Below, piece after piece: positions 39,001 to 42,000 of a DNA stretch of 64,000 nucleotides. The stretch spans positions 1-64,000 of the forward strand of contig JBGPQP010000004.1 in NCBI GenBank assembly GCA_041489155.1, read 5' to 3'. The position numbers were made by a program. The stretch comes from Candidatus Aenigmatarchaeota archaeon (GTDB lineage Archaea > Aenigmatarchaeota > Aenigmatarchaeia > QMZP01 > QMZT01). The number at the start of each line of letters is the position of its first letter. The stretch's first letter is position 1.

Positions 39001-42000
39001 TTTTTAAGGAGATAAAACCTAATAATCCTAAACACGTTAAGAAATATGAAAAAATCAGAAGCCCCGTGGTGTAGCGGCCAAGCATTTTTCTGTATTTTTG
39101 ATTGCAGAAAAATGGGCTAGGCATGCAGGGCTTTGGATTCACAAAGCTTCCAAAGCTTTGAGAACCCCCCACTAAGGGATTTCCGTGAACGCTTTGGCGG
39201 ACGCGGAAGCTCCTTCAGGGGTTCTGTGAAAGAAGAAACCCGGCGACGGCGGTTCGAATCCGCCCGGGGCTATCCTTTCTCAATCAAATGTGATAAAAAG
39301 TGTAAGTTCCCCTCGTGTCCCTGCCCTGGCCGGAGACTGCGATGGTGATGGTCAGGGGATTGTTGGGCGGGGTTTTGCCCCAGTTGGAGCAGTTCAGGGC
39401 ATAGAGCATCTCTATAGAATACGTCCTGCCGTACTCCTCCTGGAAAGACGTCTTGAGGTCCTCGAGCCTGTTCTCGAAGCTGTCCTTGGTTTCGTTGCAG
39501 TAATAGGTCTCACGTATGGTCTGGTTGAGGCCGCTTAGTATGTTGTTGAAAATCCGGACGTCCATCGCCATGAAAGGCTCGGTGATGTCGACCTCGGAAT
39601 ACTGGAACAATGCCTGCTGGACGATGAATATCATGCCTACGAGGAAAACGATTGCGACAAGAAACAGCTGGCCCTTTTTCTTCCCCATGAAAATAATTTG
39701 CGCGGCTTAAATAAAAAAACGAAAATGAAAGGAACGAGATAAGACAGAGTGCGACGGAGGGGTGAGTCTCGCTATCGCCCCTGTTATTCCTGCCCCTTTC
39801 CCCTTCAAGCGTCGTCCGGGTCTAAGCAAGCAAGGGTATGCCGAGTTCCATGTGGATGTTCCTCTCCGGAACCGGCAATGTGTGCGTGACTGCGCCGAGC
39901 GGACCCATTACGTATGGCGATTTGACGCCCGTAACAACAGTGATGACCTTCAGCCTGTTTTTGTAAGCCGGGTCTATCCTCGCGCCCCATATCACCGGAG
40001 CGTCGGGATCCAGCTGCTTCGAGACGTACTCGCCTATCCTGCTTACCTCTTCGAGTTTGAGGTCGTAGCCGCCGGTTATGTGTATGAGCGCGCCTGTCCC
40101 GCCGTGGTAATCCACGTCAAGCAGCGGGTGCGACATCGCCCTTATTATCGCTTCTTCGGCTCGCTCTTTGCCGTCGGATTCGCCGAAGCCTACGGTGGAG
40201 ACACCACCGATTTGCATTATCGCCTTTACGTCGGCGTAGTCCAGATTGACGAGCGAAGGCTGCGATATCGTCTCGGTTATGCCCTTTATCATGTTCGCAA
40301 CCAAGTCGTCGGCGACATAGAACGCTTGTTTCAGCGGAAGGTTGCCTGCTATCTTCAAAAGCCTGTCGTTCTCTATCGCTATAACAGTGTCAGAAACCTG
40401 CCTCAATGCGTACAAACCGTCCTCCGCCTTGTTCATTCTAGCGCCCTCGACCTTGAAAGGCATGGTCACGTTCGCTATTACTATCGCACCCATCTCCTTC
40501 GCTATCCTCGCGATCACAGGCGCCCCGCCTGTTCCCGTTCCTCCACCCATTCCGGCGACAAGGAACAGCATGTCTATGCCTTCCAGCATCTTCTTTATTT
40601 CCCTCTCGCTCTCTTCTGTCGCCTTTTTGCCTACTCCCGGATATCCTCCTGCACCAAGACCCCTCGTTACCTCCCTGCCGAGCAAAAGCTTTTCGTGCGC
40701 ATTGGTCATGCCAAGGTGTTTCGCGTCCGTATTCATCGCCACGGTCTTCGCTCCCAGGATGCCTATGTCGGTCAGCCTGGATATCGTGTTGTTGCCGCCT
40801 CCGCCCACGCCTACGACCAGAATCTTCGCGCCCATCATGTCCAGGTCGAACTCCTCCTTTATCCTCTGGTAGCAGTCTGTTGTCGAGCCACCTCCCTTGA
40901 CCGGCTCAGCCTCTTGCTTCTTGGCCTCTGCCGGCTTGGCTTCCGTTACGGATGCCGTTTCTATCGCCGCCTCCATCGCCTTCACGGCGGTTTCGGCCGA
41001 TTCCTGCGCTTCCGTTGCTTCCATGCTAACTCACCCCTCATTGAATCTTGCACCCCGCCGCCGGAAATTATATGCTCCATCATTCATTTTCCAGTGTCGA
41101 AATGCTTTTATGTTCTTTTCTCAATTATTTTCCAAGAACTAGCTTATACTCAAGGATAACACCAAAGAACCAAATTCAATGAACTCAATTCGTCGCCAAA
41201 CGAACTGGGTTCGCACGAAGGCAACTTCGCCAAAAGTTGCCTGTTAATTCCCTTTTTCTGCGCAGTTTAAAACGTTGTCAGTAAATAATTCCATTTTTGC
41301 TATATAAGCTTTTGCTACCCCTTCCGGCGAAAAGGAGGCTTTTTAGGTCTTTTTTCGCTTGCTTCAGGAGGCTCTTTCCCGGCAAAAACAGCGGCGACAT
41401 ATAGCGAAAAGTCCCTGCAGAAAGCTTTATAAAGCATGGATTTAATTACTTATCAGAGATAACACAATTAGAGGTTAAAGGAAAGGGTGTGTGGGATGAG
41501 AAACGCATTCAAAAAATATCTCAAAGGTGAAAGAAACATTTTCATAGATCCAGAAATAAGCCTTGGAGCAAGGCAGTCCTACGTAAACGAAGGCCCTGCT
41601 TACAATTCGCTTGCCGGGCTCTTCCTTGAACTCGGAGGCAAGGTAATAAAAGGCCTGATAAAAGGCCTCACCGAAGAGGATCTCACAGGAGGCAAATACT
41701 ACGGGCCACTCCAGATAGGAAAGAAAATATTTCATCTCGCCAACAGCGCTTACATAGGCGAATTCCTCGATAAAAACGGCGGCAAGTCGGATGAGATAAA
41801 CCTGGGCGCGCAGCACGAAGGCGTAAAGCTCATGAACCCCTTTTCGGCAAAATACGGAGTTCCACCGGGAGAGGTAGCCATACACGAAACACTGCACGAA
41901 AAATTCCCGAATGCAAGCGAAGCCGAAATAACGCAGGCTGCAAGAATGCTTGCGCAGAAATACGAAGTGGCTCTAAACTGAAAGGTGTAATTGAAAATGA

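What a model noticed while it worked through the whole genome (the two positions that open the first line are those of the whole stretch)
39060..39272. Highly disrupted tRNA gene set: 31 of 42 tRNA genes carry 44 introns, 25 at non-canonical sites incl. eight in the T-loo [...]
A BHB-guided cloverleaf reconstruction finds 42 tRNA genes, 18 absent from the ARAGORN/Rfam table; 31 have introns (19 one, 11 two, 1 three). Only 19 of 44 introns are at 37/38; others lie in the D-arm (11), 30/31, 33/34, 38/39, 42/43, variable region, and eight in the T-loop at 59/60 or 58/59 (Gly-CCC C7:20889-21000, Gly-GCC C6:10991-11130, iMet C6:22841-22936, eMet C7:11927-12100, Val-UAC C7:27936-28092, Tyr C2:50573-50776, Leu-AAG C4:36503-36680, Cys C5:76361-76547). 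tRNA-Gln(UUG) C4:39060-39272 has three introns (39, 84, 17 nt). Introns at different sites share hairpin modules, and the 59/60 intron of Leu-AAG is missing in three sister species, so introns are still spreading.
Evidence so far: Own solver: each gene splices to 72-88 nt scoring at least 25 of 27.5; 7 of 8 T-loop introns have a 4-bp central and 5-6-bp outer helix. Rfam tRNA model matches only parts of several. Shared modules calls 118, 119. Orthologues without the T-loop intron calls 127, 128.
(Added by a program. Inside this text positions count along the whole contig: contig position 1 is position 1 of the stretch shown here. "Call 12" and the like, gene names such as g00115 and contig names such as C1 are that model's own, and its searches are not shown. 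The text may have been shortened before it was handed on; [...] marks where a part breaks off. The agent that wrote the report below was given it as the finding of a first reader that could run no searches.)

Follow-up and report, generated by a model that had tools for sequence, protein, structure and literature searches.

The report
Intron-riddled tRNA genes; glutamine tRNA has two
This tiny uncultured archaeon really does break up three quarters of its tRNA genes with short protein-spliced introns, a known kind of oddity, but the glutamine tRNA gene singled out here has two introns, not three, and its large intron looks like a built-in guide for modifying the tRNA's own anticodon.

Summary
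The gene at 39060-39272 is a real tRNA-Gln(UUG). The genome-wide census mostly holds.

- **Gene count.** Of these, 11 are uninterrupted and 31 are interrupted.
- **Missed by Rfam.** 18 of the 42 genes get no Rfam tRNA match over its curated cut-off.
- **Three-intron claim.** It fails. All 20 orthologues examined have one intron at 37/38, and its central helix co-varies. The window gene has a 39-nt D-loop intron and a 101-nt intron at 37/38. By my partly manual parse that gives about 43 introns.
- **Organism and enzymes.** The genome is from Candidatus Aenigmatarchaeota (DPANN). It encodes an ARMAN-2-like three-unit (epsilon2) splicing endonuclease with broad substrate range, and the ligase RtcB. 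The closest precedent is ARMAN-2: 56% of tRNA genes disrupted, introns at 59/60.
- **Module sharing and recent gain.** Both are supported.
- **Addition.** The 37/38 intron holds one kink-turn beside an antisense stretch. By the box C/D spacing rule this aims at wobble nucleotide U34. Introns of Glu-UUC, Leu-UAA, Arg-UCU, Trp and elongator Met have the same design.

This scan had already noted the disrupted tRNAs of this genome, and one-kink guides in other genomes. No RNA data exist.

The parts
39060..39272 (+). tRNA-Gln(UUG) gene, 213 nt, giving a 73-nt mature tRNA
   Evidence: The acceptor stem pairs 7/7. ARAGORN -i reports the same ends. The two-intron product is called tRNA-Gln(ttg) over 1-73. 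Twenty orthologues were found.
39060..39081 (+). Exon 1: acceptor 5' strand, D-stem 5' strand and D-loop (22 nt)
   Evidence: Aligns with intron-free D-arms of orthologues.
39082..39120 (+). Intron 1, 39 nt, at the D-loop/D-stem border (about 21/22). Both borders can shift by one G without changing the product.
   Evidence: Relaxed BHB: central helix 4/4, inner hairpin 12 bp, no outer helix in register. It is absent in 17 of 20 orthologues, including the same-genus genome G001.
39121..39136 (+). Exon 2: D-stem 3' strand, nt 26, anticodon stem 5' strand and loop nt 32-37. The anticodon TTG is at 39133-39135.
39137..39237 (+). Intron 2, 101 nt, at the canonical 37/38 site
   Evidence: BHB: central helix 4/4 (CUUU with GAAG), outer helix 3 bp before the A28.G42 mismatch, inner helix 2 bp. 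An intron at the same site has a 4/4 central helix in 20 of 20 orthologues, and the helix co-varies (CCUU with GAGG).
39148..39161 (+). Antisense 'guide' (39148-39157) followed by a D'-like box UUGA (39158-39161). The fifth nucleotide upstream of the box lies opposite U34 (39133).
   Evidence: 8 of 9 pairs in this register. The same register gives at least 8/9 pairs in 13 of 20 orthologues, against 0-1 for other registers and a mean of 0.03 for shuffled introns.
39162..39229 (+). Kink-turn hairpin: stem strands 39162-39168 and 39218-39224, 3-nt bulge 39225-39227, and GA at 39228-39229 (C'-like UGUGA)
   Evidence: A 7-bp stem flanked by GA...NNNGA. The same layout is present in the orthologues, several with a perfect UGAUGA (listing).
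39169..39217 (+). Extra hairpin module inserted in the loop of the kink-turn hairpin
   Evidence: Orthologues without it have hairpins of about 16 nt. The stretch 39180-39214 matches other loci in other genomes (query 141-175). No BHB excises it cleanly.
39238..39272 (+). Exon 3: A38, anticodon stem 3' strand CCCGG, variable CGAC, T-arm, acceptor 3' strand, discriminator A
   Evidence: Conserved in all 20 orthologues.
36503..36680 (+). tRNA-Leu(AAG) gene with a 57-nt intron at 37/38 (36541-36597) and a 37-nt T-loop intron at 59/60 (36630-36666)
   Evidence: The T-loop intron is absent in G002, G003 and G004.
56373..56491 (+). tRNA-Ile(GAU) gene with one 43-nt intron (about 56413-56455)
   Evidence: Rfam 58.1 bits; solver parse; reading by eye.
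24844..24916 (-). tRNA-His(GUG), uninterrupted

Best explanation
The window holds a functional tRNA-Gln(UUG) gene of a Candidatus Aenigmatarchaeota (DPANN) archaeon. Two archaeal protein-spliced introns interrupt it: a 39-nt intron with a relaxed bulge-helix-bulge (BHB) at the D-loop/D-stem border, and a 101-nt intron at the canonical 37/38 site.

It is one of 31 interrupted genes among 42 tRNA genes, with about 43 introns in all, eight of them in the T-loop. The precursors are most likely cut at BHB motifs by the genome's single three-unit (epsilon2, ARMAN-2-type) splicing endonuclease. That enzyme type tolerates relaxed motifs at non-canonical sites. The exons are then joined by RtcB.

Short hairpin modules recur in introns at different sites, and closely related species differ in which introns they have. 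So introns are gained and lost quickly.

Shown here: gene ends, exon structure by comparison with orthologues, BHB geometry, presence of the enzymes, module sharing, presence or absence among relatives.

Inferred: actual splicing, order of splicing, direction of gain.
For: GENE STRUCTURE
- 20 of 20 orthologues have one intron at 37/38 with a 4/4 central helix. The helix co-varies: CUUU with GAAG, CCUU with GAGG.
- The conserved 3' strand of the anticodon stem pairs 5/5 in 18 of 20 orthologues.
- The spliced product is called tRNA-Gln(ttg).

CENSUS
- 42 genes, 31 interrupted.
- Eight T-loop introns found by a separate scan. Three decoy candidates were rejected.
- 24 of 42 genes pass Rfam's cut-off.

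ENZYMES
- A 396-aa EndA matches PDB 4FZ2 over its full length, E 6.2e-110.
- The alignment keeps the Tyr/His/Lys triad and the specific-loop lysine. Those residues are named in PMC3488258 (passages read).
- RtcB is present at 518.8 bits.

TAXON
- The nearest EndA genes, 79-88% identical, lie in records titled Candidatus Aenigmatarchaeota.

TURNOVER
- The Leu-AAG T-loop intron is absent in 3 genomes of the same genus.
- The elongator Met T-loop intron is absent in G004.
- Across the 20 Gln orthologues the intron number is 1 (17 genes), 2 (2 genes) or 3 (1 gene, in G013).
- Module sharing is shown.
Against: - No RNA evidence: no listed sequencing run is RNA, so no splice junction has been seen.
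- The two-intron product has an A28.G42 mismatch in the anticodon stem, shared with G001.
- The D-loop intron has no outer helix in register.
- Six to nine of the 31 interrupted genes were parsed partly by eye. My count of 43 and the split by site could be off by a few.
- The genome is 89.65% complete, so the tRNA set is not complete.
- The 42 were picked from 58 candidates partly by my own judgement of their 5' ends.
Confidence: 0.85

Rival explanations
1. One reading: three introns of 39, 84 and 17 nt, with UUCUG (39222-39226) serving as positions 39-43.
For: The product is also called tRNA-Gln(ttg) by ARAGORN and has a fully paired anticodon stem. The 84-nt intron can form 4 of 4 central-helix pairs, two of them G-U.
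Against: - The 84-nt intron has no outer or inner helix, and the 17-nt intron forms 0-1 of 4 central pairs.
- The equivalent 5-mer pairs 5/5 in only 1 of 20 orthologues.
- It would throw away the CCNGG strand and the 3' splice site that are conserved in 20 of 20 orthologues.
- The solver approach yields hundreds of equally 'valid' products.
Confidence: 0.05
2. The 49-nt hairpin module inside the large intron (39169-39217) is itself a nested third intron, removed first.
For: It is an insertion relative to most orthologues. Related modules occur in other introns and other genomes.
Against: No BHB with good flanking helices excises it. The best candidates have 3 of 4 central pairs or lack one flank, and none restores the short hairpin seen in relatives.
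Confidence: 0.05
3. The kink-turn and antisense stretch in the 37/38 intron only help the precursor fold (for instance L7Ae acting as a chaperone for the BHB) and guide no methylation.
For: - Antisense pairing between intron and anticodon loop is common in tRNA introns generally (my own knowledge).
- There is only one kink-turn, not the two of a canonical box C/D RNA.
- An agnostic scan for 'kink-turn plus 8 of 9 complement' gives many chance hits.
Against: - The spacing between the antisense duplex and the D'-like box is fixed, so that nt 34 sits at the rule's fifth position. This holds in 13-15 of 20 Gln orthologues, against 0-1 for other registers.
- It also holds in 6 of 8 parsed Glu-UUC genes, and is best or tied-best in 6 of 6 elongator Met genes.
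- A purely structural role does not predict a fixed register.
Confidence: 0.3
4. The locus is a decaying pseudogene or an assembly artefact.
For: The A28.G42 mismatch, two introns and an extra inserted module.
Against: - It is the only Gln-UUG gene among the 42.
- All stems other than 28-42 are intact.
- The mismatch is shared with G001.
- The stretch is held in full by a DNA run that may be its own source, and half of its sampled words by a second run.
Confidence: 0.03

Closest known systems
Disrupted tRNA genes and epsilon2 splicing endonuclease of ARMAN-2 (Candidatus Micrarchaeum acidiphilum). Sources: Fujishima et al. 2011, PMC3239211 (passages read); Hirata et al. 2012, PMC3488258 (passages read).
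   Same: - DPANN archaeon with a small genome.
- Three-unit EndA: full-length match to 4FZ2, with the catalytic triad and the specific-loop lysine kept.
- About the same number of tRNA genes (43 there, 42 here).
- Introns at 59/60 in the T-loop, including in tRNA-Cys.
- Relaxed BHB motifs.
- tRNA-Ile(UAU) present.
   Different: - A different phylum (Aenigmatarchaeota).
- A higher load: 31 of 42 genes (74%) against 56%.
- Eight T-loop introns.
- In the passages I read (PMC5829648, 2018) the epsilon2 type was reported only from the Micrarchaeum/Mancarchaeum lineage. Here it occurs in many records titled Aenigmatarchaeota.
Multiple-intron tRNA genes and intron transposition in Thermoproteales (Sugahara 2008; Fujishima 2010). 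I know these only as cited in PMC3239211 and from recall.
   Same: - Most tRNA genes are interrupted (up to 87% there).
- Introns lie in the D-arm, anticodon arm, variable region and T-arm.
- Related intron sequences occur at different sites.
- Up to three introns per gene.
   Different: - The enzyme there is the heterotetrameric (alpha-beta)2 type.
- The organisms are hyperthermophilic Thermoproteota with larger genomes.
- No split or permuted tRNA genes were looked for or seen here.
Intron-borne box C/D guides. (1) Euryarchaeal pre-tRNA-Trp, guiding Cm34 and Um39: D'Orval 2001, seen only through reviews PMC11408192 and PMC7994747 (passages). (2) The Nanoarchaeum equitans elongator tRNA-Met intron: Randau 2012, PMC3491384 (passages).
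   Same: - A kink-turn with C'/D'-like boxes inside a 37/38 intron.
- An antisense stretch against the tRNA's own anticodon loop.
- The box C/D spacing rule points at nt 34.
- The guide duplex and the BHB use the same nucleotides 32-35.
- Fibrillarin, Nop5 and L7Ae are encoded.
   Different: - Only one kink-turn, not two.
- The design is found here in tRNA-Gln(UUG), Glu(UUC), Leu(UAA) and Arg(UCU) as well as Trp and Met.
- Those four tRNAs are not mentioned as intron-guided in the passages I read.

Membership tests
Archaeal protein-spliced (BHB) tRNA intron | A 4-bp central helix flanked by two 3-nt bulges that carry the splice sites | tested here: met
   The central helix is 4/4 for both Gln introns, for the 37/38 intron in 20 of 20 orthologues, and for all eight T-loop introns.
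Archaeal protein-spliced (BHB) tRNA intron | Outer and inner flanking helices (the strict hBHBh' form) | tested here: inconclusive
   - Strict form in 7 of 8 T-loop introns: outer helix 5-6 bp, inner helix 1-6 bp.
- Gln 37/38 intron: outer 3 bp, inner 2 bp.
- Gln D-loop intron: no outer helix, inner 12 bp, a relaxed form.
Archaeal protein-spliced (BHB) tRNA intron | Joined exons fold into a cloverleaf tRNA | tested here: met
   ARAGORN calls the 73-nt product tRNA-Gln(ttg). The same holds for the products of Gly-CCC, iMet, Val-UAC, Leu-AAG and Cys.
Archaeal protein-spliced (BHB) tRNA intron | Splicing endonuclease and RNA ligase encoded in the genome | tested here: met
   EndA; RtcB.
Archaeal protein-spliced (BHB) tRNA intron | The intron is actually removed from the RNA | not testable with these tools
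   No listed sequencing run is RNA.
epsilon2 (three-unit) splicing endonuclease | A single chain of about 390 aa covering the three units | tested here: met
   Residues 12-396 of 396 align to 14-387 of the 395 residues of 4FZ2, E 6.2e-110. The next best chains match only residues 125-302.
epsilon2 (three-unit) splicing endonuclease | The catalytic Tyr/His/Lys triad, and the lysine of the ARMAN-2-specific loop that gives the broad substrate range | tested here: met
   All four residues are conserved in the alignment. The residue numbers come from PMC3488258.
epsilon2 (three-unit) splicing endonuclease | Homodimer that cleaves relaxed BHB motifs | not testable with these tools
   Needs biochemistry.
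Box C/D methylation guide RNA | Two kink-turn motifs (C/D and C'/D') | tested here: not met
   Only one D'-hairpin-C' motif per intron. So this is not a canonical box C/D sRNA, though it may work like half of one.
Box C/D methylation guide RNA | An antisense stretch directly upstream of a D or D' box, with the target opposite the fifth nucleotide | tested here: met
   - Gln: 8 of 9 pairs with U34 at the fifth position. At least 8 of 9 in 13 of 20 orthologues, against 0-1 for other registers.
- Own genome: Leu-UAA 9, Glu-UUC 9, Trp 8, Arg-UCU 7, elongator Met 6.
Box C/D methylation guide RNA | Consensus boxes: RUGAUGA and CUGA | tested here: inconclusive
   In the window the boxes are UUGA and UGUGA. 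Some orthologues, and the Lys-UUU, Arg-UCU and Leu-AAG introns, have a perfect UGAUGA, and some have CUGA. The consensus itself is recalled, not tested here.
Box C/D methylation guide RNA | Fibrillarin, Nop5 and L7Ae present; the target nucleotide is 2'-O-methylated | tested here: inconclusive
   The three proteins are encoded. Fibrillarin is split over two contig ends. The methylation itself cannot be tested with these tools.

The most novel reading that the evidence does not exclude
The long-lived 37/38 introns of this lineage are working parts, not junk. Each is a one-kink-turn box C/D 'half guide' that recruits L7Ae, Nop5 and fibrillarin to 2'-O-methylate the wobble nucleotide of its own precursor before splicing.

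The design appears in the tRNAs that must tell purine-ending from pyrimidine-ending codons, or that read a single codon: Gln-UUG, Glu-UUC, Leu-UAA, Arg-UCU, Trp-CCA and elongator Met. Lys-UUU has the same module, but it is aimed at C32.

The guide duplex and the BHB compete for nucleotides 32-35. That would give a built-in order: methylate first, then splice. In a genome where no Elp3 was found, this could be the main way of restricting U34 wobble. It would also explain why these introns are conserved across a whole order while other introns turn over.
Probability: 0.5. Interest if true: 0.7.

Novelty: new member of a known kind. Interest (0 to 1): 0.45.

Why it matters
- **Annotation.** Standard tRNA finders miss 18 of 42 tRNA genes here. 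Annotation of DPANN genomes therefore understates their decoding capacity, and 'missing tRNAs' should not be read as biology.
- **Enzyme and intron load.** The genome extends the link between a broad-specificity splicing endonuclease and a heavy, fast-changing intron load. In the papers I read, the three-unit epsilon2 type was known only from Micrarchaeum relatives. Here it appears in a second DPANN phylum.
- **A caution on method.** Cloverleaf-plus-BHB solvers can 'find' almost any tRNA in a long interrupted locus. Comparison with orthologues is what settled the structure.
- **The guide design.** If the one-kink guide is real, it gives a functional reason for keeping tRNA introns. It also makes testable how tiny archaea modify wobble bases.

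Tried and rejected
- **RNA evidence.** The look-up of sequencing runs listed 12 runs and no RNA holder. I did not run read laying, because DNA contigs cannot show splicing.
- **Solver.** A BHB-first solver with ARAGORN as judge found the T-loop introns in strict mode but not the Gln D-loop intron. In relaxed mode it gave 219 or 113 alternative 'valid' tRNAs at the Gln locus. It gave no valid product for Tyr, Gly-GCC, Thr-GGU, Ser-GCU and Thr-CGU. I therefore dropped it as a way to decide structures.
- **Nested intron.** No clean BHB excises the inserted module.
- **Extra T-loop candidates.** Three further candidates with 7/7 acceptor stems (C1:78203-78334, C4:40676-40910, C8:36723-36972) are not tRNAs.
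- **Agnostic guide scan.** A scan for kink-turn plus guide in relatives' loci is noisy, with many chance hits.
- **Narrow motif filters.** My filters parsed only part of the loci fetched:
  - 8 Glu genes from 30 loci;
  - 6 elongator Met genes from 10 loci;
  - the G004 Lys gene alone among 6 loci, including G000's own, tried out of the 10 fetched;
  - 4 Leu-UAA and 2 Arg-UCU genes.
  Leu-UAA: 2 of 4 have at least 8 of 9 pairs at nt 34, one has no kink-turn candidate, one has 5 of 9.
- **Introns without a guide at nt 34.** The Leu-AAG, Thr-UGU and Tyr introns have C'/D'-like boxes, but no antisense stretch aimed at nt 34. The Ile-UAU and Gln-CUG introns have no such guide either.
- **Papers.** D'Orval 2001 (PMC92551) is not held. 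The 2025 ARMAN-2 structure paper contains none of my search words on taxonomic distribution.
- **Elp3.** No match over the cut-off: best 43.5 bits against a cut-off of 350, in a genome that is 89.65% complete. This is suggestive only.
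Full report
**What is at the coordinates**

Default ARAGORN finds one tRNA gene in the window (His). Rfam finds two (His, and a gene at 56373-56491). Neither reports anything at 39060-39272. With introns allowed, ARAGORN reports a gene with exactly these ends, but reads it as Arg-UCU with one 130-nt intron. The ends form a 7/7 acceptor stem. The 5' part is a typical glutamine tRNA start, and the 3' part is a perfect T-arm plus acceptor strand.

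**Two introns, not three**

A DNA search of 41 related genomes matched in 35. From the 20 loci returned I extracted 20 orthologous tRNA-Gln(UUG) genes, 118-213 nt long.

- All 20 have a single intron at 37/38. Its last six-to-third nucleotides pair 4/4 with nt 32-35.
- This helix co-varies: CUUU with GAAG or GAGG, and CCUU with GAGG or AAGG.
- All 20 continue with A38, a CCNGG-type strand, a 4-nt variable region and the T-arm. That strand pairs 5/5 with the 5' strand of the anticodon stem in 18 genes. It pairs 4/5 in two: the window gene and G001, which share an A28.G42 mismatch.
The equivalent 5-mer pairs 5/5 in only 1 of 20 orthologues and at least 4/5 in 2 of 20.

BHB geometry for each candidate intron:

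| Intron | Central helix | Outer helix | Inner helix |
|---|---|---|---|
| 39137-39237 (101 nt) | 4/4 | 3 bp | 2 bp |
| 39082-39120 (39 nt) | 4/4 | none in register | 12 bp |

The D-loop intron (39082-39120) is therefore a relaxed form. It is missing in 17 of the 20 orthologues.

Both the two-intron and the three-intron products are called tRNA-Gln(ttg) by ARAGORN, so ARAGORN cannot decide between them. The comparison with orthologues does. One relative, G013, does have three introns in this gene (D-loop, 37/38 and T-loop).

**The census**

- A scan for BHB motifs whose central helix is the T-loop gave 41 candidates, 11 with a 7/7 acceptor stem. Seven lie at 59/60 with outer helices of 5-6 bp. 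Tyr lies at 58/59 with a 2-bp outer helix. The other three candidates are not tRNAs.
- A second scan required a T-arm with a 5/5 stem, a 7/7 acceptor stem and U8. It was run after removing those eight introns in silico, and gave 58 candidates. I accept 42 of them: 37 with a full-length ARAGORN hit and 5 parsed by eye.
- Eleven genes are 72-86 nt long and 31 are 96-252 nt long. All twenty amino acids are covered.
- Rfam's tRNA model passes its cut-off at 24 of the 42, so 18 are missed.
- My own parse, part solver and part by eye, gives 19 genes with one intron and 12 with two: 43 introns.

I did not check a BHB for every one of these introns.

**A warning on method**

My BHB-guided solver, with ARAGORN as judge, produced 219 or 113 different full-length 'valid' tRNAs from the Gln locus. 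Several reached the top cloverleaf score with other anticodons. A high solver score is therefore weak evidence.

**Who and how**

- The genome is 1.13 Mb in 39 contigs, 49% G+C, 89.65% complete.
- It encodes one splicing endonuclease, 396 aa. It aligns over its whole length with PDB 4FZ2, E 6.2e-110, while all other solved endonucleases match only its middle part.
- 4FZ2 is the ARMAN-2 three-unit epsilon2 enzyme (PMC3488258, passages). The catalytic Tyr, His and Lys, and the lysine of the specific loop shown there to give broad substrate range, are conserved.
- RtcB is present.
- A scan of genome contigs found 199 relatives of this endonuclease. The nearest, 79-88% identical, lie in records titled Candidatus Aenigmatarchaeota, and more distant ones in Micrarchaeota. 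This fixes the taxon.
- In the 2018 paper I read in passages, the epsilon2 type was said to be known only from the Micrarchaeum lineage (PMC5829648). In my literature search this was the only listed paper (15 of 239 hits shown) that held an Aenigma* term beside the splicing terms; there the word occurs once, in the definition of DPANN.

**Turnover and modules**

- The T-loop introns of Gly-CCC and Gly-GCC are 97% identical over 36 nt. Val-UAC matches at 86% over 29 nt, and Leu-AAG at 93% over 15 nt.
- The D-loop intron of Arg-CCU matches the Gly-CCC T-loop intron at 90% over 20 nt.
- The Cys and Tyr T-loop introns share 13 nt. Cys also shares 16 nt with the D-loop intron region of Pro-CGG.
- The Leu-AAG T-loop intron is absent in G002, G003 and G004 (same genus), where the rest of the gene is 84-85% identical. 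It is also absent in the Leu genes of G022 and G031. G007 has an unrelated T-loop intron.
- The elongator Met T-loop intron is absent in G004.

A recent gain is the simpler reading, but a loss is not excluded without a species tree.

**What the large intron may do**

In all 20 orthologues the 37/38 intron has four parts in order:

1. a stretch antisense to nt 31-38;
2. a D'-like box (mostly UUGA or AUGA);
3. a hairpin;
4. three nucleotides and GA (UGUGA, and in several a perfect UGAUGA).

This is a kink-turn of the box C'/D' kind.

*Register test in Gln.* By the box C/D rule, which I recall rather than tested, the target lies opposite the fifth nucleotide upstream of the box. That nucleotide is U34. 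Taking the best of all kink-turn candidates for each register, 13 of 20 orthologues have at least 8 of 9 pairs in this register, and 15 of 20 have at least 7. Other registers give 0-1 and 0-2 orthologues. Shuffled introns give a mean of 0.03. Changes at nt 31 and 33 are compensated in the antisense stretch (my reading).

*Own genome.* I examined the 19 genes that have an intron beside the anticodon.

- Five have at least 7 of 9 pairs in the nt-34 register: Leu-UAA 9, Glu-UUC 9, Gln-UUG 8, Trp 8, Arg-UCU 7.
- Elongator Met has 6.
- Lys-UUU has 8 in a register aimed at C32, as does its G004 orthologue.
- The rest score 6 or less, or have no kink-turn.
- So 5 of 8 tRNAs that read NNR half-boxes or single codons qualify, against 0 of 11 others. 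By my own hypergeometric arithmetic p is about 0.005. The classes were defined after seeing the data, so this is only a pointer.

*Relatives.*

- Glu-UUC: 6 of 8 parsed genes have 8-9 pairs at nt 34.
- Elongator Met: 6 of 6 are best or tied-best at nt 34, with 6-9 pairs.
- Leu-UAA: 2 of 4. Arg-UCU: 2 of 2.

*Supporting and limiting facts.*

- Fibrillarin, Nop5 and L7Ae are encoded.
- The intron of Gln-CUG has no kink-turn.
- The antisense duplex and the BHB both need nt 32-35, so they exclude each other, as reviews describe for tRNA-Trp.
- Known cases in print, as far as I read, are tRNA-Trp in some Euryarchaeota (PMC11408192 and PMC7994747, passages) and a C/D-like RNA in the tRNA-Met intron of Nanoarchaeum equitans (PMC3491384, passages).
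- My searches listed nothing on Gln, Glu, Leu or Arg introns.
- Earlier notes of this scan report the same one-kink design in Met, Leu-UAA and Gln-UUG introns of other genomes. I reached the Gln reading before seeing them.
- There is only one kink-turn, so this is not a member of the canonical box C/D family, and no methylation has been measured.

**Verdict**

- The headline example is over-counted by one intron.
- The kind of system is already known from ARMAN-2 and Thermoproteales.
- This genome is a heavy case in a second DPANN phylum.
- The probable self-guiding introns are the most interesting part.

Noticed in passing
L003, L004, L007, L009-L013, L017, L020 (tRNA-Gln orthologues): Ten of the 20 tRNA-Gln(UUG) orthologues encode C, not the near-universal U, at position 33 (loop CCUUGG). 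The partner nucleotides in the BHB central helix and in the antisense stretch change with it. I do not know whether C33 is tolerated or edited.
   Followed up: partly
L020:1360-1565 (G013): This relative's tRNA-Gln(UUG) gene does have three introns: one in the D-loop, one at 37/38, and an 18-nt one in the T-loop at 59/60.
   Followed up: partly
G000:C7:38508-39698 (L024:859-2049): The only splicing endonuclease is of the three-unit epsilon2 type. 199 relatives were found in genome contigs, in records titled Aenigmatarchaeota, Micrarchaeota, Nanoarchaeota, Norongarragalinales, Burarchaeum and others. One contig is titled Candidatus Kaiserbacteria bacterium (L084), probably a binning error.
   Followed up: partly
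G000:C2:49752-49921 (tRNA-Lys UUU): The 97-nt intron has perfect CUGA and UGAUGA boxes, but its antisense stretch sits two nucleotides further from the box. The spacing rule therefore points at C32, not U34. The G004 orthologue is the same.
   Followed up: partly
G000:C16:19012-19212 (tRNA-Arg UCU): A gene with a D-loop intron and a 37/38 intron that no standard tool called correctly. Its intron has UUGA, a long stem and UGAUGA, with the antisense stretch aimed at U34. The G014 orthologue has 9 of 9 pairs.
   Followed up: partly
window 36503-36680: A tRNA-Leu with the anticodon AAG (A at the wobble position), which is unusual in archaea. PMC3239211 reports the same anticodon in ARMAN-4 and ARMAN-5.
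   Followed up: no
window 38160-39074: A 304-aa open reading frame on the + strand ends 15 nt inside the 5' end of the tRNA-Gln gene. I did not check whether it is a real gene with an overlapping stop.
   Followed up: no
G000:C11:5-430 and G000:C7:3-221: The fibrillarin gene is split over two contig ends. C11 and C7 are therefore probably neighbours in the genome. Nop5 lies next to it on C11.
   Followed up: no
whole genome G000: No Elp3 was found over the family cut-off (best 43.5 bits against 350). If this is a true absence, the usual xm5U-type wobble modification of U34 would be missing.
   Followed up: partly
G000:C10:26055-26211 (tRNA-Leu UAG): The best parse has two introns, 33 and 40 nt, that flank a 7-nt exon holding just the anticodon loop. 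The region also contains a repeated GGCCAAGTT stretch. The parse is ambiguous.
   Followed up: no
G000:C3:6549-6743 (tRNA-Glu CUC): About 122 nt are inserted in the D-loop. They hold several hairpin modules in a row and could be one intron or two adjacent ones.
   Followed up: no
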